Shown here: in pieces, positions 1 to 8,907 of the stretch
Layout: each line of letters begins with the position of its first letter
Position numbering within the stretch: the stretch's first letter is position 1
Assembly: GCA_005191425.1 (NCBI GenBank)
Contig: SUPR01000120.1
Span: forward strand, 1-8,908
From: Candidatus Helarchaeota ASGARD archaeon Hel_GB_B
Lineage (GTDB): Archaea > Asgardarchaeota > Lokiarchaeia > Helarchaeales > HEL-GB-B
DNA: 8,908 nucleotides
Direction: 5' to 3'
Notes under the pieces: model-generated
What the model was told of the DNA's origin: nothing
Databases searched by the model: none
The model's input: the letters and a program-made list of their open reading frames with translations, nothing else
Position numbers and translations under genes: made by a program

Positions 1-1899
1 TTTTTCTCCTCCCCCCTTGTGAGAGGAAATACCTAATAAATATTCCGCTCTGATTTCCTCAGGAGTTAGTGAGCGATTCCAAATTTTTACTTCGTCTATT
101 GTTCCGTTGAAGTAATAGGTGTATCCGCCGTGACCGATTCTCCAATTTCCTGAGTTCAGAACAATATCCCCTGTTTTGTCAACACTCTTTTTTAACACAC
201 CATTTACATAAAGTTTCATTGCTTGTTTGTCATATGTTCCTACTACGAAATACCATTTTCCTGTTTCAATATCTGTAGAAATCACAGTCTTTTCAGAAGA
301 ATTTGCTATTTGGAAATTAATAACTGAATTGCCATACCCCACTTTGAGACCCGGACCTTCATTCCACTCATCTCCTTTCAAAACAACACCTGCCCATTTA
401 TTAGGAACTTCTGATAAAAATATCCACGCACTTATAGTAATTCCATTTGGAAAATTTTGTAGACTTGAGGGATTTCCTATGTTCACATAATCATTTCCTT
501 TAAATTCCAAAGCGGAGCCGAATTTTCCACCAACTCTACTCGCTCCATAAATTGTTCCGTCATTATTGTTTTGAGAATCATAAGCAATATTTCCTGTTTT
601 TTCATCAAAACTCCAATAAGAAACTAAATTTTCGCCATTTGAAGAAGTTAATTTCATTAATTCTTGATCTTCCGCTCCCTTGTTTCCATAATTTTGTGTA
701 TTAGAATCGGTGATATGTATTTTTTCTATTGTTGCTTCACAATATTCAACATCGTTATAAACAATAGAATTGTTATATGCAGAAGTTCCTTCATAAATAC
801 AATAAGTATAATTATCTCCTTCTATAACATTACCCATAACGATGTTGTCTCTGGAAACACTATTTGAAATTTGAATTGCTGGATATTGTCCGCCTGTCGG
901 CCCTTCTTCAAACCTATTACCTATTATTAACCAATATCTTGCTCTATTATATCCAACAATTTGTTCTTTAACAGGATGTTCAAATAAATTACCCATTATC
1001 ACTATATTATCTGTCCATTCGTATTTGATATGTCTTACATTGCTCCAAAAATGATTATTTATAATTCTATTATCCCACGCTGAACTTCCATATATCCCTG
1101 CTGAAGTCGAAGAATCAGTGTCAATCCCGTTATTTGAAATGAAATTACCTGAAATTTCATTATCTACACTATGATATATTCCAATATGTGAATTTGAATG
1201 AATATCTGAATCAACAATTTTATTCATATAACCTCCAAAGTGTATGTCTATACCAACATAACAGTCTACAACTGAAATTCTTTCAAATATACAAGATTGA
1301 CATCTCATTACAATTCCTGAATTATTAATATTGTTGTTTTTGTTTCCGTCCAACTTCAAATCTCTAAGCTCTAAATTGTATATTGTAAAATCCGTATTTG
1401 TAGATTCGATAAGCGATTTATTGATGTTATCTGCCAATTTTAAAATCGTCGATTCCTTACCTTGACCTCTTATTATTAAATTGTTCCTATAACGTGGTTC
1501 TATTCGAATTGAATCCGTAAGAATGTAAGTCCCTTCTTTAATATATATATCTGCATTTTGATAATTACAATCTTCCAAAACTCCATTAATCACAGTAGCA
1601 GCATCTGAACTCGATAATATAATATTACCTGAAGAATTTTTCGCATAATACATTGAACCATCAGTCCAAATAACATAATCCGCAGTTTCTTGAAGAGAAG
1701 GAGAATTTATAATTTCATAATTATTCATATCTATATCTCCCATAGAGGTGAATCCATCTATATAAGTAACGTTAATCGTATCAGTAGTTCCGTCAATGTA
1801 TATCGCAGAACTTACGATACTAGTTAATATTATTAAAATAAAAACAATACCGAGTAAGCTGAGAAAATTCTGTTGTTTTTGTATCATTTTAAATTTCAT
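1..1899 (-). CDS. Secreted right-handed beta-helix (pectate lyase/tailspike-like) protein with a C-terminal LamG (concanavalin A-like) domain; 3'-partial, at least 633 aa
   Basis: Not in the ORF track. I checked every codon in this frame: there is no stop from ATG 1899 to base 1, and an upstream in-frame TAA lies at 1914..1912 (alternative ATG at 1887). It begins MKFKMIQKQQNFLSLLGIVFILIILTSIVSSA (signal peptide). It continues with IYIKEGTYIL..LIIRGQGKESTILKL..LELRDLKLDGNKNN and repeated N(x)I(x)GN/N(x)I(x)NN turns (beta-helix, about 1600-690). It then has LVSYWSFDE..GKFGSALEFKG..TISAWI..WYFVVGTYD..KLYVNG..FNGTIDEVKIWNRSLTPEEI (LamG, about 630-40). Confidence 0.9.
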   Translation of the reverse strand, partial: MKFKMIQKQQNFLSLLGIVFILIILTSIVSSAIYIDGTTDTINVTYIDGFTSMGDIDMNNYEIINSPSLQETADYVIWTDGSMYYAKNSSGNIILSSSDAATVINGVLEDCNYQNADIYIKEGTYILTDSIRIEPRYRNNLIIRGQGKESTILKLADNINKSLIESTNTDFTIYNLELRDLKLDGNKNNNINNSGIVMRCQSCIFERISVVDCYVGIDIHFGGYMNKIVDSDIHSNSHIGIYHSVDNEISGNFISNNGIDTDSSTSAGIYGSSAWDNRIINNHFWSNVRHIKYEWTDNIVIMGNLFEHPVKEQIVGYNRARYWLIIGNRFEEGPTGGQYPAIQISNSVSRDNIVMGNVIEGDNYTYCIYEGTSAYNNSIVYNDVEYCEATIEKIHITDSNTQNYGNKGAEDQELMKLTSSNGENLVSYWSFDEKTGNIAYDSQNNNDGTIYGASRVGGKFGSALEFKGNDYVNIGNPSSLQNFPNGITISAWIFLSEVPNKWAGVVLKGDEWNEGPGLKVGYGNSVINFQIANSSEKTVISTDIETGKWYFVVGTYDKQAMKLYVNGVLKKSVDKTGDIVLNSGNWRIGHGGYTYYFNGTIDEVKIWNRSLTPEEIRAEYLLGISSHKGGGEK

Positions 1900-1974: not shown

Positions 1975-3777
1975 TCATTTTTTAAAAAACGGATATAAAA
2001 TTATTATTAACAATAATAGAACTGAGAGAATATGCCAAAGTTTTATTTCGAATCCACTTTTTGGAAGTGGAAAAATTGTAGTATTTAAAAAAATTATAAG
2101 CTTTTCGAGAGAAAAAATATAAGATTTTCCAATTCTCATTACAATCGGAAAACTTTTCGCGTAATTCGAAGAAATAAATTTCAAATTACTCTGATAATCT
2201 CTTCCAATTTCGACATCTTTTGGAACTCGGATATCGAAATAAATCCATCTCTCAGAATTCCCGACGATATCGAAATCGAGAATCTGAGCCCAATTTTTTT
2301 CGTCGAGAGATAAATAAATCCAATTTTTACTCTCGTCATTAGATTCAATTTCAACTCTAATATGAATCGTTTTCTCAGAAGGATTTATAATTTTAAGAGC
2401 ACAACCTTTTTCTAGACCAAAACATCGAATTTTACTTCCCGGATATCCAAATAGAACTAAGTGATCTAAATTCAATTCGAAACTCTCATTTTCACAATCG
2501 AGAGGACAATTCTCTGGTGTCTCTCCGATTTCACACACACCATTTCCACAAATCGGAGAAATTTCTCCTCCGCCTCCCCCCGACGTTTCGCTAGTATAAA
2601 AATAAGAAAACTCAATTTTAACTTCATATTCTCCCTCAGATAAAGAACTTGAAGAATGATTTTTACCTATTACTAGAGTCTTAGATGAAGTTAAAAAAGT
2701 TAAATTTTTATTCGAGTTATTAATAGTATAATTTAAGCTCATTAAATTTGACAAACTCTCTGAGATAAAAGGCATCGAAAAATTGATTTTATAATTTCGA
2801 CTCGAGTTGTCTTTAACTAAGATCCAAGTTATATAAGAAACTTGTCGGATATTATCCTCGGTATCGACGATTTTTTTACAATAACCGTAATCTAAATAAT
2901 TTCCTTTAGTATAACCGACGGGACAAATAGTATTTCCAATATCTTTTTGGATTATTGTAGAAGCATTGAGTTGAATAGATAAAATCGTATTAGTCGAAGT
3001 AAAATTTTTAATTATTTTATTTGAAGTTAAATTCGAATAAATCGATGTATTATAATAATTAGAAAAATCAACTTCGATATTTGTAAAATTAATATCGATA
3101 TTTTTGGAAATATTAAGAGTGAAATTATAAATTTGATAAGTATTAACTTCGACAACTGAATCGCTGATTAAAATTGGGAGAGAATAAGATTCACTTAGCC
3201 AATCTCCACTCCACTCTGAATATAAAGTTATATTAGAATTATTTTCTAAAATTCCATTAAAATTTCCTCCTATCGCTAAAATTCCTGAGTATTTGTTATA
3301 ATGATTAATTGAATATTTCAAAGAAGTATTTGCTTTATTTTCTAAAATATCTGATTTATAAATTCTTTGACAACTGAGATTTTTTATTGTCGATGAAAAA
3401 TTATGAAAATACGAATTATTTGTGAAACTGTAATTTATATAATAATCATCGACGCTATTTGAAGAATCATTCGCATATACAGTTCCCGAAAAACTTAAAT
3501 TATTAGAAATATTTAAAAAAATCGGATTCGAATCTCCAAATGAGCAATTAGAATAATCTCCTATCCAAACACAATCTCTATCTAATAAGCCATTTCCATC
3601 TGTCACACCAATTAATAAAATTACTTCGTTTTTGGAACCGAGTTCAGAAATATTGAGAGTTACAACGTTAATCGAAGGTTGAGTATTTGAAGTTCCTCCA
3701 ATTTCAAAAATATCTTCAGCGAATACTATGTTAATTATAATTAAAAATAAAAAAATTAATAAAGTTATTTTTTTCAT
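1975..3777 (-). CDS. Membrane-anchored cell-surface glycoprotein (600 aa) with Gly linker, Cys motif and C-terminal transmembrane helix
   Basis: Signal peptide MKKITLLIFLFLIIINIVFA. About 27 N-x-S/T sequons by manual count. TSGGGGG linker followed by CGNGVCEIGETPENCPLDC. Hydrophobic C-terminus LWHILSVLLLLIIILYPFFKK. Confidence 0.85.
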   Translation of the reverse strand: MKKITLLIFLFLIIINIVFAEDIFEIGGTSNTQPSINVVTLNISELGSKNEVILLIGVTDGNGLLDRDCVWIGDYSNCSFGDSNPIFLNISNNLSFSGTVYANDSSNSVDDYYINYSFTNNSYFHNFSSTIKNLSCQRIYKSDILENKANTSLKYSINHYNKYSGILAIGGNFNGILENNSNITLYSEWSGDWLSESYSLPILISDSVVEVNTYQIYNFTLNISKNIDINFTNIEVDFSNYYNTSIYSNLTSNKIIKNFTSTNTILSIQLNASTIIQKDIGNTICPVGYTKGNYLDYGYCKKIVDTEDNIRQVSYITWILVKDNSSRNYKINFSMPFISESLSNLMSLNYTINNSNKNLTFLTSSKTLVIGKNHSSSSLSEGEYEVKIEFSYFYTSETSGGGGGEISPICGNGVCEIGETPENCPLDCENESFELNLDHLVLFGYPGSKIRCFGLEKGCALKIINPSEKTIHIRVEIESNDESKNWIYLSLDEKNWAQILDFDIVGNSERWIYFDIRVPKDVEIGRDYQSNLKFISSNYAKSFPIVMRIGKSYIFSLEKLIIFLNTTIFPLPKSGFEIKLWHILSVLLLLIIILYPFFKK

Positions 3778-3804: not shown

Positions 3805-6411
3805 TTAACTATTCGATTCTATTTTCACTTTGAAATCCATAATCCCATCTCCGTAACAGAAATCATCTTTTATTACATAGAAAATTCTCGAATCGACGAT
3901 TTTTTTCTCCCAAACTCCTTGAGTCGAGGGTGTTATATTTATGAACTCTGTTCCATTGTAATATTTTATATATTCCCCTGAAGTTACTGTAGAATCAATG
4001 CATAGAGCTGTCGTTGTTGAATTAATAAAAGTTCCTGGAGGTGCTATTGAATTATTTGGAAGATAATAATTTAGTGTAATATTTCTAAACCATTTTTTAA
4101 GAGCTGTCTGTTCATCTCCAAAAGTTTGGATAACTGGAGTTCCAGTTCCGTAATCGGAATCATAAAATTCTAAGTTTGGATAAACTGAATTTTTATTTAT
4201 TATATGAGTGTAATTACAAATTCCGTTTGAAACTGAGTACAAAATATCATTAACCTCACAAGAATCTCCATTTACATAATATCCTGAGATTTTTAATTTA
4301 TAAGGAAGAGAAACTCCAGTGTTATTAATCCATTTTACTTTGTTTATATTTGAATTTGCAATTATATCTCTATAGGTATCCCATTTATAATCTGAGATTT
4401 CGATATAAGAAGATAAATTGAAATCTGATACCATTATCGACTGATTCTCAGTGTTATTTAAATTTCCCGCTGTATCGTTAACAAAAGAAGATATATTATA
4501 AGAACCTTTACTTAAACTTATATTTACTTCGTAAATAGTTCCGGAAATTAGAGTCATTAAATAATTTAACATTGAATTATAAACTCGAGCCCAAACCGAA
4601 TCTAAATGGATATCCGAAGCTGAGACGTTAATTTTTATATTTTTTTTATCTACATTTAATATTAAATTTGACAAATTCACAGTTCCATTATAATAATTTA
4701 TCGAAATCTGTTGATTTGAAATTAAAGGATTAATAGTATCTATGATTAATTCTCTAATTTCACTTTGATAAACATCATCTCCCACAGAACAATTAATATA
4801 CCAATTATAAACTCCATCTGAAAGAGATTGATTAGCTATTACAATAGTCGGAGTATTGTTATCTGCAGTTACAGTTCCATACCCTGTATCGTTGATAAAT
4901 AACTCGCAAGGATAAGAATTAAGACTTTTTCCGATCATTGTGAAATTAAAACTTGGTGTCATATTATTTAAAGCTTTTTGATTTGGAGGTGAATTTAATA
5001 TCAATTTCGTGCTGTCTTGTAAATTAAATTTCACTCCATTTTCAGCTTTTAAATTTATCACTGTTATATTACAGTATTCAGAAGTATTTGTTATTATTAT
5101 TTCATCGTAATCTTCCGTGACTTCATAGCTACATTCTTTAAAAGTCGAATTTCTAATAAAATATGGAACTAAAAAAGTTACGTTTACTTCTCCAGTTCCT
5201 ATGGGAGTTATCGTTGCGTTGTGATTTGAAGAACAATTTTCTATTGAATTTATTATATTATTATTGGATGTCGAATATAAATAAGGCATCACATAAAAAG
5301 TTTCGATTGTTGTCGTATTTGATGTTCCTGAACTGTCGTTTGCTGTGATTTTCCATTGTATTATTTTATTACATTGATTAGGAGTTGTATAAGAAAAATT
5401 ACTCCATTTCGGAGTAAGAGAATCTCCTAAATCTATTGTCGAAATATTCGTCCAAGAACCTGTAATATTTAAATTTAAAACTGCTGTATCGAGTTTACCA
5501 GTTAAATTATATTCATATATAGCGTCATTGTAATAGCCTATAACATATAATTTAGTACCATTGTTATTAAATGTCATACCGCTCGGTCTATAATCTTGAG
5601 AAATAACTTTTAAATCGTCATTATAGATTCCTGTACTTACATCATAAGGTGTTGATAAATTATATTCATTTACACCTACACTAGCATAACCTACTATATA
5701 TAATTTAGTACCGTCATTGTTAAAAGCAATACTTTCAGCATTGCCTTCAATATCACTTACATCTAGAAAATCATTATAAATTCCTGTGCTAATATCATAA
5801 GGCGTTGACAAATTATATTCAAATACTTTACTATTATATTCACCCATTACATATAACTTAGTACCATTATTATTAAATGCGATGCCTTTAGGATCTTCAT
5901 CTTGATTGCCAACATATAAATCATCATTATAAACTCCTGTACTTATATCATAAGGCGTTGATAAATTATATTCATATACTTTATAATGTTCAATTCCTAC
6001 GATATATAATTTAGTACCATTATTATTGAAAATCAAATCTTGTGGATAAATATCTTGAGAACTTACACTCAAATTATCATTATATACTGCAGTGCTAATA
6101 TCGTATGGAGTGGATAAATTATATTCATAAATTGCAGCATTTTCTTCACCGATCACATATAACTTAGTACCATTGTTATTAAATACGACACCTGTCGGAT
6201 GATCGTCTTCTGAAATATAAAAATTATCATTATAAATACCTATAGATACATCGTAAGGTATGTCGATAGGAATCCATTTCGCTCTCAACTCTATACTCTC
6301 GTTCATTTTGACATAAGTCAAATTTTGTCCAACATCGCTATAACTTGGCGCAGCTTCAATTAAGTTTAAAAAAGAAATAAATAACAAATTTATAAATATG
6401 ATTTTCTTCAT
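3805..6411 (-). CDS. Secreted surface glycoprotein (868 aa) with five beta-propeller-blade repeats and several Ig-like domains
   Basis: Signal peptide MKKIIFINLLFISFLNLIEA. Five 50-51 aa repeats span aa 52-305. Ig-like segments end in the motifs WKITANDSSG, LSDGVYNWYINC..IIDTINP and YNISSFVNDTAGN. Many sequons; no C-terminal hydrophobic anchor. Confidence 0.87.
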   Translation of the reverse strand: MKKIIFINLLFISFLNLIEAAPSYSDVGQNLTYVKMNESIELRAKWIPIDIPYDVSIGIYNDNFYISEDDHPTGVVFNNNGTKLYVIGEENAAIYEYNLSTPYDISTAVYNDNLSVSSQDIYPQDLIFNNNGTKLYIVGIEHYKVYEYNLSTPYDISTGVYNDDLYVGNQDEDPKGIAFNNNGTKLYVMGEYNSKVFEYNLSTPYDISTGIYNDFLDVSDIEGNAESIAFNNDGTKLYIVGYASVGVNEYNLSTPYDVSTGIYNDDLKVISQDYRPSGMTFNNNGTKLYVIGYYNDAIYEYNLTGKLDTAVLNLNITGSWTNISTIDLGDSLTPKWSNFSYTTPNQCNKIIQWKITANDSSGTSNTTTIETFYVMPYLYSTSNNNIINSIENCSSNHNATITPIGTGEVNVTFLVPYFIRNSTFKECSYEVTEDYDEIIITNTSEYCNITVINLKAENGVKFNLQDSTKLILNSPPNQKALNNMTPSFNFTMIGKSLNSYPCELFINDTGYGTVTADNNTPTIVIANQSLSDGVYNWYINCSVGDDVYQSEIRELIIDTINPLISNQQISINYYNGTVNLSNLILNVDKKNIKINVSASDIHLDSVWARVYNSMLNYLMTLISGTIYEVNISLSKGSYNISSFVNDTAGNLNNTENQSIMVSDFNLSSYIEISDYKWDTYRDIIANSNINKVKWINNTGVSLPYKLKISGYYVNGDSCEVNDILYSVSNGICNYTHIINKNSVYPNLEFYDSDYGTGTPVIQTFGDEQTALKKWFRNITLNYYLPNNSIAPPGTFINSTTTALCIDSTVTSGEYIKYYNGTEFINITPSTQGVWEKKIVDSRIFYVIKDDFCYGDGIMDFKVKIESNS
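5497..6258 (-). repeat. Five tandem in-frame repeats with a 153-nt period, consensus PYD(I/V)STG(I/V)YND-x10-P-x-G-x2-FNNNGTKLY(V/I)xG-x6-YEYNLST
   Basis: The plus-strand word TAGTACC occurs at 5553, 5706, 5859, 6012 and 6165, exactly 153 nt apart. Units are 50, 51, 51, 51 and 51 aa. The pattern fits four-stranded beta-propeller blades. Confidence 0.95.
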
Positions 6412-6451: not shown

Positions 6452-6997
6452 TCATATTTCACAGAACCAGAACCAAGTCCAACCCATTGTGTTACAAATG
6501 AAAAACTTTATGATATCCCAGAAATTCATTGGATCATCTGGAGGTGAGTAACAAACTCTATAACTTTCTGAGACTTCATCGATTATATAAGGTGTTCCTG
6601 GAACTCCTTGAGTCAAATTAACTCCTATTATTTTCGAAGTGTAATTATATACTCCAGCTTCACTAAAGGTGCAAAGAATTTGATGATCTGGACAATATCC
6701 CGTTGTTATGCTATAAAATTCTCCATCTTCATGTTCACCGTCTTTATCTAGAGACCAAACGCAATACTGATATAATCCCTCACCAGTGTATTTATTAAAA
6801 AAACTCTCATATTCACTGTAACTCTGAGAAAATTGAACTGCATCTCCAATGTAATAGTCACATTCGTCTTCACCTGAACTCACGAAACCGCCTATTTGAA
6901 AAATATCTACAGCAAATGTCATTGGAGTCACCAATAATATCATTATTATTGACATCGAGATCAAATTACTTTTCATAAAATAATAAACTAAAAACAT
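6452..6997 (-). CDS. Small exported protein, possible PKD/Ig-like fold, with an aromatic amphipathic C-terminal tail
   Basis: Hydrophobic N-terminus ending TFA (alternative ATG at 6976). CTFSEAGVYNYT resembles the PKD HTYxxxGxYxV strand. C-terminus FWDIIKFFICNTMGWTWFWFCEI. Confidence 0.75.
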   Translation of the reverse strand: MFLVYYFMKSNLISMSIIMILLVTPMTFAVDIFQIGGFVSSGEDECDYYIGDAVQFSQSYSEYESFFNKYTGEGLYQYCVWSLDKDGEHEDGEFYSITTGYCPDHQILCTFSEAGVYNYTSKIIGVNLTQGVPGTPYIIDEVSESYRVCYSPPDDPMNFWDIIKFFICNTMGWTWFWFCEI

Positions 6998-7311: not shown

Positions 7312-7875
7312 TTAAATTTTAAAATATCTCTCGGTTTTCGATTCTATTAGTGTTAAAGAATTCATAAAGTTATTAATAGAATTTTCGTCGATGAATCCCG
7401 TAGTTAAAATAGGTCTCCAAGAGTTGTTATAAAAAATCAAAGAGATACAATGATTTCCGTTATAAGTTCCACATACTGAATAACACGAAATATTTTTTTC
7501 ATAGAAAATTGAACAAAGTAAAATTGATTTATCACTACAAATTCCTTTTCCTTTCGCTAGAGTCGTTGTAGCATTTTGACATCGAGTCGATAAATTTTTC
7601 AATTGATCATAATCATAAGGAAAATTCAAAATCCAATCTTGTATATCGCGAATCGTGGTTAAATTTTTAGCTAATTCTTTAATTTGGTTATTAGAATCGA
7701 AACAATATCCCCATAACTGTTCCTGTTTCAATAAATCATTTTTCTTAATTAATTCTTCTAAGTTATATTCATATTTTTCAAAAAGATATCGATTTTTAAA
7801 TTCTTCATTCGCAATGACGATTATTAAAAAATTAATTAAAATTAATATTAAAATAAATAAAATTTTTTTAATCAT
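7312..7875 (-). CDS. Exported or membrane-tethered transglutaminase-like (papain-fold) protein, 187 aa
   Basis: Hydrophobic N-terminal helix. Core motifs IQDWIL..PYD, TTTLAKGKGICSDKSILLCSI (catalytic Cys113 context), GTYNGNHC (His142) and NNSWRPI. Confidence 0.78.
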   Translation of the reverse strand: MIKKILFILILILINFLIIVIANEEFKNRYLFEKYEYNLEELIKKNDLLKQEQLWGYCFDSNNQIKELAKNLTTIRDIQDWILNFPYDYDQLKNLSTRCQNATTTLAKGKGICSDKSILLCSIFYEKNISCYSVCGTYNGNHCISLIFYNNSWRPILTTGFIDENSINNFMNSLTLIESKTERYFKI

Positions 7876-7948: not shown

Positions 7949-8653
7949 TTATCCTTGAGCTATTGGAGGAGTGCATTTCTCAGTTCCATCTGGTGAGAAA
8001 CAGTAGTTTTCACTTGGATATCTGGAGACTGGAGTTCCATTTGAACTGGTGACATAGAATTTCATTTGCCAAGAAATCGTTGAACTCTTAATTTGATAAC
8101 ATTTCCCATTATCACAGATTTCGAAAAATCCACAATCTTCACTCGTGTTACAAGAACCGGTGACAAATTTTTCCTTGGTTTTTTTGCACATTACTTCAAC
8201 TTCTCTATGTCCTTCAGGAGTATAAGTGATCTCTGCTAAAATACAACCATCGGAATTAGTTTTCGGAAGTCCTGTCGCCGGATCACAAGGTTCTAAATTT
8301 CCACAACTCAAATCAGTGCAAATATTTCCGCAATATAGGTCTAAGTACTGTTGAGCAAATTCAATAGCTTCTTCTTCGAAATTCGGTGAATTTGGATCTA
8401 AAAGTAAATTTTCGGGTTTATAACAACTGTAAATTGTGAAACTGATATCCGATCCTATACTCCAAGTACCTTCATCTCGAATTTCTCCTTTATCACAATA
8501 GCAATTATCAGCAAAAGGGGTTTCACTACAATGTCGCGGTTGATCCATTGCAATAGACCAAATTGAGAGTCCTATTTTTGAAAATATTAAGAACATTGAA
8601 GCTACTAAAATTATTATAATAAAAATTTTATTTTTATTTTTTCTTCTTTTCAT
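7949..8653 (-). CDS. Cys-rich exported or membrane-anchored protein, about 234 aa
   Basis: The track start at 8701 is a TTG followed by an AT-only stretch. ATG 8653 gives a basic-then-hydrophobic N-terminus (MKRRKNKNKIFIIIILVASMFLIF). The protein has 16 Cys, including CNTSEDCGFFEICDNGKC. Confidence 0.8.
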   Translation of the reverse strand: MKRRKNKNKIFIIIILVASMFLIFSKIGLSIWSIAMDQPRHCSETPFADNCYCDKGEIRDEGTWSIGSDISFTIYSCYKPENLLLDPNSPNFEEEAIEFAQQYLDLYCGNICTDLSCGNLEPCDPATGLPKTNSDGCILAEITYTPEGHREVEVMCKKTKEKFVTGSCNTSEDCGFFEICDNGKCYQIKSSTISWQMKFYVTSSNGTPVSRYPSENYCFSPDGTEKCTPPIAQG

Positions 8654-8694
8654 AATTTTATAAATTTTTAAATTATTTATAATTTTATTTTTAA

Positions 8695-8907
8695 TTACCA
8701 ATTAAATAACCCGGCGATCCAACTTAAAATTAAATTAAAAAACTCAGCGATTTTTTCCCAAATCGAAGGTTGAACCGGTTGAGTAATACATTCCCCAATC
8801 GCAACACAACGATTATCTGAAGAACAGGTAAAAGTTATCCCAACACAAGGAGGCTCCGGGCAATCTTCGTCGACCATACATTGGATAACTCTCGGATTAC
8901 ATTCTCC
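8695..8907 (-). CDS. C-terminal part of a Cys-rich surface protein with an amphipathic tail; 5'-partial
   Basis: The frame stays open beyond the track's ATG 8877 to the window edge (GECNPRVIQC-MVDEDC...), so that Met is probably internal. It contains CMVDEDCPEPPCVGITFTCSSDNRC and ends IWEKIAEFFNLILSWIAGLFNW. Confidence 0.75.
   Translation of the reverse strand, partial: GECNPRVIQCMVDEDCPEPPCVGITFTCSSDNRCVAIGECITQPVQPSIWEKIAEFFNLILSWIAGLFNW

What the first reader, a model, noticed from the sequence alone, without database searches (positions are those of the whole stretch)
5290..6351. Five-blade propeller array appears inserted inside a single Ig-like domain
Removing the repeat array (aa 52-305) joins APSYSDVGQNLTYVKMNESIELRAKW to KLDTAVLNLNITGSWTNIST..WSNFSY..IIQWKITANDSSGTSNTT. 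The joined sequence reads as one continuous Ig-like domain of a type I recall from DPANN surface proteins. The flanks and repeats are seen in the sequence; the single-domain reading is inference. This would be a domain insertion into a loop rather than ordinary head-to-tail accretion, placing a swappable binding head at the tip of the protein.
Basis: partly seen in the sequence, partly recalled or inferred. Interest (0 to 1): 0.7.

Follow-up and report, generated by a model that had tools for sequence, protein, structure and literature searches.

The report
Propeller nested in split beta-sandwich domain
A secreted archaeal surface protein carries a five-bladed propeller spliced into a loop of one small beta-sandwich domain, and in related genes this propeller has been exchanged as a cassette, a known way of displaying a binding head that is seen here in a new setting.

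Summary
ORF 3805-6411 (-) encodes an 868-aa secreted protein with five 50-51-aa repeats at aa 52-305. These fold as a five-bladed propeller (pLDDT 96-98).

The single-domain reading is supported by sequence:
- A homolog (P0300) has both flanks contiguous. The propeller-deleted flank profile aligns to it end to end, 65.9 bits, with 2 extra residues at the junction.
- The C-flank matches only columns 34-100 of a 104-column domain (hhalign 95.6%). That domain occurs as tandem units hitting Pfam DUF7743 in same-order archaeal genomes, so the C-flank lacks about 32 N-terminal columns. The N-flank is 31 aa.
- A split-chain fold gave weak support (0.57 against 0.01).

The Ig-like fold itself was not confirmed, because AlphaFold2 confidence in the flanks was low.

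"Swappable" is supported in relatives. Scaffolds about 91-93% identical carry propellers 35-38% identical, with sharp DNA breakpoints at the insert borders.

Many relatives are about 500-aa membrane-anchored proteins. Two of them lie on about 11.7-kb circular, ORFan-rich elements, which may be archaeal viruses or plasmids.

The design matches the "split domains" of bacterial RTX adhesins, and this scan has found propeller-in-Ig modules on other DNA before. I class it as a new variant of a known kind. The binding function is inferred.

The parts
3805..6411 (-). Whole gene, 868 aa plus stop (P0001): a secreted modular surface protein
   Evidence: ORF list and translation. It is the only copy in its own genome.
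6352..6411 (-). Signal peptide, aa 1-20 (MKKIIFINLLFISFLNLIEA)
   Evidence: Read from the sequence. Relatives have an equivalent hydrophobic leader ending ...A/AP.
6259..6351 (-). N-flank, aa 21-51: proposed first two strands of the split host domain
   Evidence: This is the most conserved part of the family, with 79% mean pairwise identity. It is contiguous with the C-flank equivalent in P0300. Its predicted pLDDT is 76-78 when co-folded with the C-flank and 43 with an unrelated chain.
5497..6258 (-). Guest domain, aa 52-305: five-bladed beta-propeller. Blades are aa 52-101, 102-152, 153-203, 204-254 and 255-305.
   Evidence: Repeats are shown. AlphaFold2 pLDDT is 96-98. VIA-align gives Z 23.2 to 3qqz_A. 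The same five-blade unit matches more than 10,000 clusters at 50% identity, with the best-matching stretch usually spanning about aa 52-305 of the query.
5284..5496 (-). C-flank, aa 306-376: remaining strands of the split host domain
   Evidence: hhalign gives 95.6% probability, E 1.3e-8, to columns 34-100 of the 104-column DUF7743-type units. Mean identity in the family is 76%.
5002..5283 (-). Domain D2, aa 377-470: Cys-containing all-beta domain that always travels with the split module
   Evidence: It is conserved in all relatives. No Pfam match was found. AlphaFold2 pLDDT is 48-78.
4426..5001 (-). Two Big_13-like Ig stalk domains, aa 471-562 and 563-662
   Evidence: Pfam Big_13 scores 20.9 bits, below the cut-off of 27. 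Many homologous copies occur in related surface proteins.
3808..4425 (-). C-terminal region, aa 663-868. Together with the Ig stalk it is shared by proteins that carry other N-terminal heads.
   Evidence: P0256-P0259 align with aa 465-868 at 69-72% identity but carry a beta-helix (PF13229) or DUF2341 (PF10102) N-terminal part.

Best explanation
P0001 is a secreted, probably heavily N-glycosylated (45 sequons) archaeal surface protein. Its membrane-distal module is a 'split domain'. A small ~100-residue all-beta domain of the DUF7743-like type, probably an Ig-like sandwich, is interrupted between its second and third strands. A complete five-bladed beta-propeller sits in that gap.

The repeat phase means that the first strand of the array should close the last blade. 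The chain would then enter and leave the propeller side by side and return to finish the host domain (inferred). The host domain, together with D2, forms a conserved pedestal, and the propeller is the exposed, variable head.

Sequence variation between relatives is concentrated in the D-A and B-C loops. In four-stranded propeller blades these loops lie on one face, which is the usual ligand-binding face.

In relatives the propeller is replaced as a unit by recombination at the conserved flanks.

The most likely role is recognition or attachment to a surface ligand (glycan or protein) of another cell. In the ~500-aa membrane-anchored relatives found on ~11.7-kb circular elements, the role may be host recognition by a virus-like element.

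What is shown: the repeats, the propeller fold, homology of the flanks to a contiguous domain, and cassette exchange. What is inferred: the exact packing, the Ig-like fold, the insertion-loop geometry and the binding function.
For: 1. Contiguous homolog. The fused-flank HMM aligns over positions 2-99 of 99 to P0300 aa 251-351 at 65.9 bits. The C-flank alone scores 55.9 bits at aa 282-351. The N-flank alone scores 9.3 bits at aa 251-274, just 7 residues upstream. Only 1 of 278 other proteins (510,000 residues) reached that N-flank score.

2. The C-flank is an incomplete domain. hhalign gives 95.6%, E 1.3e-8, to columns 34-100 of 104-column units. Those units hit Pfam DUF7743 above its cut-off: 41.7, 41.5 and 31.7 bits against 27. 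A global alignment of the fused flanks covers unit columns 3-102 with one gap at the junction.

3. The N-flank always travels with the module. It is present in 20 relatives, including an internal copy in P0260 that follows another Ig domain. It is the most conserved segment: 79%, against 54% for the propeller.

4. Split-chain fold. The verdict was weak support. ipSAE was 0.57, 0.53 and 0.57, with best control 0.01. The mark was reached by 58 of 80 solved complexes and 2 of 110 mismatched pairs. At 0.60 or under it was reached by only 7 of those 80 solved complexes and by both mismatches that passed. The runs agree in at least 96% of contacts and the partner's pLDDT is at least 76. The alignments were my own, so these counts hold only roughly.

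5. The propeller is autonomous. Structural matches cover aa 54-305 only. Among the fetched homologs, 130 complete five-blade units were found without these flanks.

6. Cassette exchange. P0266/P0292 are 93% identical in the scaffold and 38% in the propeller. P0268/P0292 are 91% and 35%. Scaffold and propeller identities are uncorrelated over 169 pairs, r = -0.14. At DNA level, P0268 against P0292 is 97-99% identical in codons 1-50, with third positions 96-100% identical. Identity falls at ...RAKWTP to 32-70%, with third positions 21-61% (mostly below 45%). It recovers inside the C-flank to 92-97%.

7. Variability maps to the D-A and B-C loops of every blade (with strand positions).
Against: AlphaFold2 did not place the flanks with confidence. 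In P0001:21-480 the pLDDT was 27-49 for the N-flank and 37-59 for the C-flank. I had no coordinates to inspect.

The contiguous P0300 domain folded at mean pLDDT 55.8 and found no structural match. The Ig-like fold is therefore unproven.

Neither the flanks nor P0300 hit any Pfam family directly. The link to DUF7743 is transitive.

The N-flank similarity to DUF7743-type units is not detectable on its own.

The complex score is in the weak band.

The cassette-exchange evidence comes from metagenome contigs of relatives, not from this gene. No ligand or binding activity is known.
Confidence: 0.78

Rival explanations
1. Ordinary head-to-tail architecture. The 31-aa N-flank is only a mature N-terminal leader or linker, and aa 306-376 is a small self-sufficient domain that follows the propeller.
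For: AlphaFold2 gave the N-flank low confidence and only one short strand. In thousands of other proteins the same five-blade unit sits in series with other domains. One example is a complete Ig-type domain directly after the propeller in P0168.
Against: The C-flank matches only columns 34-100 of its 104-column domain family. The N-flank is the most conserved segment and is retained even when the module is internal, as in P0260. P0300 has the N-flank equivalent directly fused to the C-flank equivalent. The co-fold raises both pLDDTs against the controls.
Confidence: 0.12
2. The N-flank belongs to the propeller, as a closing (velcro) strand, a cap or a plug, and not to the C-flank domain.
For: Many propellers close with an N-terminal strand. 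The N-flank lies immediately before blade 1.
Against: Five full repeats already supply all 20 strands, so closure can be made by the first in-array strand. The top structural matches (Z above 20) start at aa 54-56, although a few weaker rows begin at aa 46-51. The more than 10,000 related five-blade units carry no such segment. In P0300 the equivalent segment lies after the propeller and next to the C-flank equivalent.
Confidence: 0.07
3. Artefact. The nested arrangement or its variants come from mis-assembly of repeats in metagenomes.
For: The window is a whole 8.9-kb contig of a binned genome. Relatives with 3 or 4 blades exist.
Against: The repeats are only 69-82% identical at DNA level. 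The same nested order occurs in at least 20 clusters from many independent samples and assemblers. P0268 is identical on four contigs.
Confidence: 0.03

Closest known systems
Ig-like 'split domains' of Gram-negative RTX adhesins (AhLap, MpIBP, FrhA type; PMC12077191, which cites Graham et al. 2024, Proteins 92:933)
   Same: A small Ig-like domain of a stalk is interrupted by a complete ligand-binding domain. The termini of that domain lie side by side, so it projects away from the stalk axis (PMC12077191). A conserved scaffold with a variable projected head is the same principle.
   Different: Here the protein has a Sec signal peptide and no RTX nonapeptides or type I secretion signal. It is archaeal. 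The host domain is DUF7743-like and is the first domain of the mature protein. The guest is a five-bladed propeller rather than a CBM, vWFA or beta-roll. The guest is exchanged by recombination at the flanks.
Integrin beta-subunit hybrid domain with the inserted beta-I domain, and nested pilus-tip adhesins such as RrgA of Streptococcus pneumoniae (from my own knowledge)
   Same: A beta-sandwich domain carries a whole binding domain in one of its loops at the distal end of a stalk.
   Different: The lineages are unrelated. The guest there is a vWA fold and not a propeller. No sequence similarity was tested here.
Five-bladed propellers: YjiK C-terminal domain (PDB 3qqz, SdiA-regulated family) and bacterial glutaminyl cyclases (3mbr, 3nok)
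   Same: These are the best structural matches of the guest domain: Z 23.2, 22.0 and 20.5, rmsd 2.6-2.8 A, over 212-226 aligned residues.
   Different: Sequence identity is only 11-13%. The Pfam models SdiA-regulated, Glu_cyclase_2 and SGL are below their cut-offs for P0001. Those proteins are not nested in another domain. The enzymatic residues were not examined.
Methanosarcina surface-layer protein fragment with tandem YVTN propeller and PKD domains (PDB 1l0q)
   Same: An archaeal surface protein that combines a propeller with an Ig-like domain. It is the top Foldseek hit (E 7.4e-11).
   Different: That propeller has seven blades and stands in series with the PKD domain. It is not inserted into it.
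Receptor-binding protein of Staphylococcus phage phi11 (PDB 5efv)
   Same: It contains a five-bladed propeller used as a host-recognition platform, and it matches the guest at Z 17.1. It is a precedent for a viral attachment role of this fold.
   Different: It is a tail-fibre-type trimer of a tailed phage with no split host domain. Homology is not shown.

Membership tests
Five-bladed beta-propeller fold | Five four-stranded antiparallel blades closing a ring | tested here: met
   There are five repeats. AlphaFold2 pLDDT is 96-98, with four strands per repeat. The top VIA-align matches are five-bladed propellers, Z 20-23.
Pfam SGL (PF08450), SdiA-regulated (PF06977), Glu_cyclase_2 (PF05096), Lactonase (PF10282) | Score at or above the curated gathering cut-off | tested here: not met
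   For P0001: Lactonase 13.2-18.4 bits against 21.7, SGL 14.4 against 26.3, SdiA-regulated 14.6 against 21. The relative P0266 passes SGL partially, 41.1 bits. No Pfam or NCBIfam model describes this 51-aa five-blade unit.
DUF7743 (PF24893) as the host domain | Direct Pfam match of the flanks or of the contiguous homolog | tested here: not met
   No hit for P0001:300-480 or P0300:240-360 at E up to 5.
DUF7743 (PF24893) as the host domain | Profile-to-profile homology to units that do pass the Pfam cut-off, covering the whole domain | tested here: inconclusive
   The C-flank gives 95.6% probability to unit columns 34-100. The N-flank aligns to columns 3-32 only in global mode and with low confidence. 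The units score 31.7-41.7 bits against a cut-off of 27.
Ig-like (E-set type) beta-sandwich fold of the host domain | Seven to nine strands in two packed sheets, with structural matches to Ig-like domains | tested here: inconclusive
   The AlphaFold2 model of P0300:246-354 is all-beta with 8 strands, but mean pLDDT is 55.8. Foldseek found no match at E <= 0.001. Big_7 is below its cut-off in the contiguous units, 18.8-22.1 bits against 24.1. Language-model neighbours are Big_13, Big_7, DUF4625 and DUF7743 clusters at 0.82-0.90, which is only a lead.
Split-domain display module (RTX-adhesin type architecture) | One host domain interrupted by a complete guest domain, with the two host halves forming one fold | tested here: met
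   Contiguous homologs were found. The guest is autonomous. The co-fold of the two halves gave weak support, 0.57 against 0.01. Packing was not seen in coordinates.
RTX adhesin (the protein family itself) | [quoted passage not shown] | tested here: not met
   P0001 has no GGxGxD motif. It has an N-terminal Sec-type signal peptide. The genome is archaeal. The protein works like a split-domain adhesin but is not a member of that family.

The most novel reading that the evidence does not exclude
The split-domain propeller module may be the host-recognition spike of an undescribed group of ~11.7-kb circular archaeal viruses or virus-like elements from hydrothermal sediments. These elements would retarget themselves by swapping whole propeller cassettes at the conserved flank sequences. 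The chromosomal gene in this window would then be a cellular relative or a captured copy that mounts the same head on a cell-surface stalk. This could reflect head exchange between virus and host, or a decoy.
Probability: 0.25. Interest if true: 0.75.

Novelty: new variant of a known kind. Interest (0 to 1): 0.5.

Why it matters
Projecting a binding domain out of a split Ig-like domain is an established principle for bacterial RTX adhesins. This case extends it in four ways:
- The setting is archaeal surface proteins and small circular, probably viral, elements.
- The host domain is different (DUF7743-like).
- The guest is a five-bladed propeller, a very abundant module that Pfam and NCBIfam do not describe.
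- DNA-level evidence shows that the guest is replaced as a cassette at the host-domain borders.

If the ~500-aa relatives are viral spikes, the conserved flanks are natural recombination handles for host-range change. They would also be useful markers for finding the receptor-binding proteins of uncultured archaeal viruses.

For annotation, the case shows that a 31-residue 'leader' can be the first third of a domain whose remainder lies 254 residues downstream.

Tried and rejected
- AlphaFold2 of P0001:21-480 with a 94-row alignment. The propeller was excellent but the flanks had low confidence. No coordinates were available, so packing could not be read.
- AlphaFold2 of the contiguous P0300 domain. 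Mean pLDDT was 55.8, and Foldseek against the PDB gave only noise.
- hhalign of the flanks against the neighbouring Big_13-like Ig domains of the same protein family. Probability was 0.1% or less, which is uninformative at Neff ~1.5.
- Pfam and NCBIfam on P0001, on the flanks and on P0300, P0299 and P0301. Nothing passed a cut-off.
- PDB sequence search with the DUF7743-type array. No match.
- Pattern scans of GTDB genome contigs and IMG/VR viral contigs with the C-flank+D2 alignment. No relatives.
- The metagenome scan mostly returned contigs of proteins already in hand.
- Pfam and PHROGs on ten ORFs of circular element L022. Almost all are ORFans. Only a DUF6385 hit below its cut-off and one PHROG of unknown function appeared.
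- Literature searches for a propeller inserted in an Ig-like domain, and for archaeal-virus propeller spikes. No direct precedent in the held library.
- SSU rRNA was not found in the bin.
- I considered P0270/P0295 (propeller 100% identical, scaffold 75%) as a clean cassette swap and rejected it. The identical block runs from the N-flank into the middle of the C-flank, so it is a single breakpoint and could also be an assembly join.
Full report
**Observation.** The window's longest ORF (3805-6411, minus strand) encodes an 868-residue protein, P0001. The finding's span 5290-6351 is residues 21-374.
- After a Sec-type signal peptide (aa 1-20) and 31 residues (aa 21-51) come five repeats of 50-51 residues at aa 52-305, in strict register (PYD[IV]S, GTKLY and EYNL motifs).
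- At DNA level they form a 153-nt array with 69-75% matches.
- AlphaFold2 with a 94-row alignment models aa 54-305 at pLDDT 96-98, with four strands per repeat.
- An exhaustive structural comparison puts five-bladed propellers on top: YjiK 3qqz_A (Z 23.2, rmsd 2.7 A, 226 residues), then glutaminyl cyclases 3mbr_X and 3nok_B (Z 22.0 and 20.5). The matches cover model residues 34-285, which are aa 54-305.

**The guest is an autonomous, very common module.** A search of 1.84 billion cluster representatives found 10,279 proteins at E <= 0.001. For most of them the best-matching stretch spans roughly aa 52-305 of the query. Among 180 of the fetched homologs there are 130 complete five-blade units, often several per protein. 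No Pfam or NCBIfam model describes the unit. P0001 stays below every cut-off.

**Are the two flanks one domain? Sequence evidence.** About 20 close relatives share the order N-flank, propeller, C-flank and a further domain D2 (aa 377-470).
- Most are ~500-aa proteins with a leader and a C-terminal transmembrane anchor.
- In P0260 the module is internal, directly after another Ig domain, and still begins with the N-flank.
- The flanks are the most conserved parts. Mean pairwise identity is 79% for the N-flank and 76% for the C-flank, against 54% for the propeller.

The decisive relative is P0300 (474 aa). It has five ~43-residue propeller repeats at its N-terminus, followed by one unbroken stretch.
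- A profile built from the family's flanks with the propeller columns deleted aligns to that stretch from position 2 to 99 of 99. The aligned region is aa 251-351, the score is 65.9 bits, and there is only a 2-residue insertion at the former junction.
- The C-flank profile alone gives 55.9 bits at aa 282-351. The N-flank profile alone gives 9.3 bits at aa 251-274.
- In 510,000 residues of other fetched proteins only one sequence reached that N-flank score.
- P0299 and P0301 have the same leader, D2 and anchor but another, Trp/Cys-rich repeat array at the N-terminus. They also carry a contiguous version of the domain, at 17.7 and 10.4 bits.

**A second, independent line.** A search of 60 related genomes found weak C-flank matches in two genomes of the same order.
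- These lie in large ORFs made of tandem ~104-residue units.
- The units hit Pfam DUF7743 (PF24893) above its cut-off: 41.7, 41.5 and 31.7 bits against 27. They hit Big_7 just below its cut-off.
- Profile-to-profile comparison aligns the C-flank (positions 2-68) with unit columns 34-100 of 104, at 95.6% probability and E 1.3e-8.
- So the C-flank is the last two thirds of a domain and lacks about 32 N-terminal columns. The N-flank has 31 residues.
- In global mode the fused flanks cover unit columns 3-102 with a single gap at the junction. Confidence is low over the N-flank part.
- The insertion point corresponds to the short turn between the strand ...VNITVHITD and the strand VDTVLINTNYTG of the contiguous units.

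**Structure evidence is weaker.**
- In the AlphaFold2 model of aa 21-480 the flanks have pLDDT 27-59. I had no coordinates.
- The contiguous P0300 domain folded as eight strands at mean pLDDT 55.8 and found no structural neighbour.
- The two flanks were folded as separate chains, with 21-row alignments of my own. The verdict was weak support. ipSAE was 0.57, 0.53 and 0.57, with best control 0.01.
- The mark was reached by 58 of 80 solved complexes and 2 of 110 mismatched pairs. At 0.60 or under it was reached by only 7 of those 80 solved complexes and by both mismatches that passed.
- The runs agree in at least 96% of contacts and the partner's pLDDT is at least 76. The pLDDT of each flank fell to 33-54 when its partner was replaced.
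- Language-model neighbours of the P0300 domain are Big_13, Big_7, DUF4625 and DUF7743 clusters at 0.82-0.90. This is only a lead.

I therefore call the host domain a DUF7743-like all-beta domain, probably Ig-like, but not shown to be.

**Swappable head.**
- Scaffold identity (flanks plus D2) and propeller identity are uncorrelated over 169 pairs of relatives, r = -0.14.
- P0266/P0292 are 93% against 38%. P0268/P0292 are 91% against 35%. P0269/P0272 are 92% against 51%. P0001/P0260 are 77% against 40%.
- In a codon alignment of P0268 and P0292, from different samples, codons 1-50 are 97-99% identical, with third positions 96-100% identical.
- Identity drops at ...RAKWTP to 32-70%, with third positions 21-61% (mostly below 45%), through the propeller. 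It returns within the C-flank to 92-97%.
- Saturated silent sites between near-identical flanks mean that the cassette was replaced by recombination, not changed by selection.
- Array length also varies: 5 blades in most, 4 in P0296 and P0297, and 3 in P0293. The repeats are only ~79-82% identical in DNA.
- Within blades, variability is concentrated in the D-A loop and the B-C loop, while the A-B and C-D loops are nearly invariant. By the established geometry of propellers the variable loops share one face.

**Context.**
- All neighbours in the window are exported proteins. They include a beta-helix plus LamG protein and a transglutaminase-like protein.
- The bin is a 3.5-Mb archaeal genome at 28% GC. 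Ribosomal protein L15e is present and L9 is absent. It is not a DPANN-sized genome.
- P0001 has no paralog in the bin.
- The C-terminal stalk (aa 465-868) recurs at 69-72% identity behind other heads, a beta-helix or DUF2341.
- Two of the ~500-aa relatives lie on contigs of 11,821 and 11,903 nt that each have an exact 141-nt terminal overlap. Their gene orders are circularly permuted relative to each other.
- These contigs are therefore complete ~11.7-kb circles. They are full of small ORFans and carry an RHH protein. A related contig carries an STIV B116-like gene.
- A signal peptide, ectodomain and C-terminal anchor protein on such an element is a candidate spike or attachment protein. This is inference.

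**Comparison with what is known.**
- The arrangement works like the Ig-like split domains of RTX adhesins, which project ligand-binding domains with adjacent termini away from the stalk (PMC12077191).
- It also works like the integrin beta hybrid/beta-I pair and nested pilus-tip adhesins (from my own knowledge).
- It is not a member of the RTX adhesin family. It has no RTX motifs, it has a Sec leader, and the genome is archaeal.
- This scan has already reported propellers nested in Ig-like domains on other DNA: Poseidoniales, Saccharibacteria-like and Calditrichota. The general design is therefore not new.
- What is particular here is the host domain type, the five-blade guest, the natural contiguous and nested pair of relatives, the DNA-level cassette replacement, and the link to small circular elements.

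**Verdict.** It is a new variant of a known kind, of moderate interest.

Noticed in passing
L022:1-11821 and L025:1-11903 (family genes at L022:6541-8064 and L025:1939-3468): Two contigs carrying ~500-aa relatives are complete circles of ~11.7 kb. Each has an exact 141-nt terminal overlap, and their gene orders are circularly permuted. They hold about 22 mostly ORFan genes, an RHH protein and an 807-827-aa CarboxypepD_reg-repeat protein. They may be an undescribed archaeal virus or plasmid group.
   Followed up: partly
P0293, P0296, P0297 (for example L021:5001-6401): Relatives have only 3 or 4 blades between the same flanks (spacing 155 and 206-207 aa instead of ~255). The repeats are ~79-82% identical in DNA, so assembly collapse is not obvious. 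How a 3-blade array would close is unexplained.
   Followed up: partly
P0299 aa 28-300 and P0301 aa 28-240 (L017): These have the same leader, D2 and anchor as the family, but the head is a different ~50-aa Trp/Cys-rich repeat array (CxNCTGxGxWELIxG...FYWNGTxWV). It is placed before a contiguous host domain and has no Pfam match.
   Followed up: no
window 5497-6258 compared with the rest of the window: TCGA occurs 66 times in the window (7.4 per kb, against 2.07 per kb in the whole bin) and 14 times in this gene. It occurs zero times in the 762-nt propeller cassette, with sites 8 and 5 nt outside its borders. Several relatives' contigs are strongly TCGA-depleted (L012, L014, L025, L001). This is compatible with import of the cassette from a TCGA-avoiding element. 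It also raises a question about the binning of this contig.
   Followed up: partly
window 5497-6258 (aa 52-305) and P0002-P0255: The 51-aa five-blade unit occurs in more than 10,000 clusters at 50% identity, often many times per giant protein (up to 6,246 aa). It has no dedicated Pfam or NCBIfam model. Source annotations call it YncE or YvrE.
   Followed up: partly
window 3808-5001 (aa 471-868) and P0256-P0259: The Ig stalk and C-terminal region are shared at ~70% identity with proteins that carry other N-terminal heads (beta-helix PF13229, DUF2341 PF10102). This is head shuffling at a second level.
   Followed up: partly
P0280 aa 714-737: This is the only other protein reaching the N-flank score (PTYSDKSTNTTLAGVSTEFRVKWTD). 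The segment follows a Big_13-like domain directly. A C-flank-like segment lies about 330 residues downstream (aa 1046-1132). This could be another split or a separate domain.
   Followed up: no
P0300 aa 278, P0299 aa ~334 and P0301 aa ~274, compared with window aa 347 (Cys in TxxCNK): The contiguous forms have a conserved Cys in the turn where the propeller is inserted in the nested forms. All forms keep the Cys in the later strand. The contiguous forms may therefore hold a disulfide whose partner is missing or moved in the nested forms.
   Followed up: no
window 1-1899, 1975-3777, 6452-6997, 7312-7875, 7949-8701 (all minus strand): Every large neighbouring ORF begins with a hydrophobic leader. 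They include a beta-helix (NosD-like) plus LamG protein that runs off the window, a 600-aa protein with a C-terminal anchor, a transglutaminase-like protein and a Cys-rich protein.
   Followed up: partly
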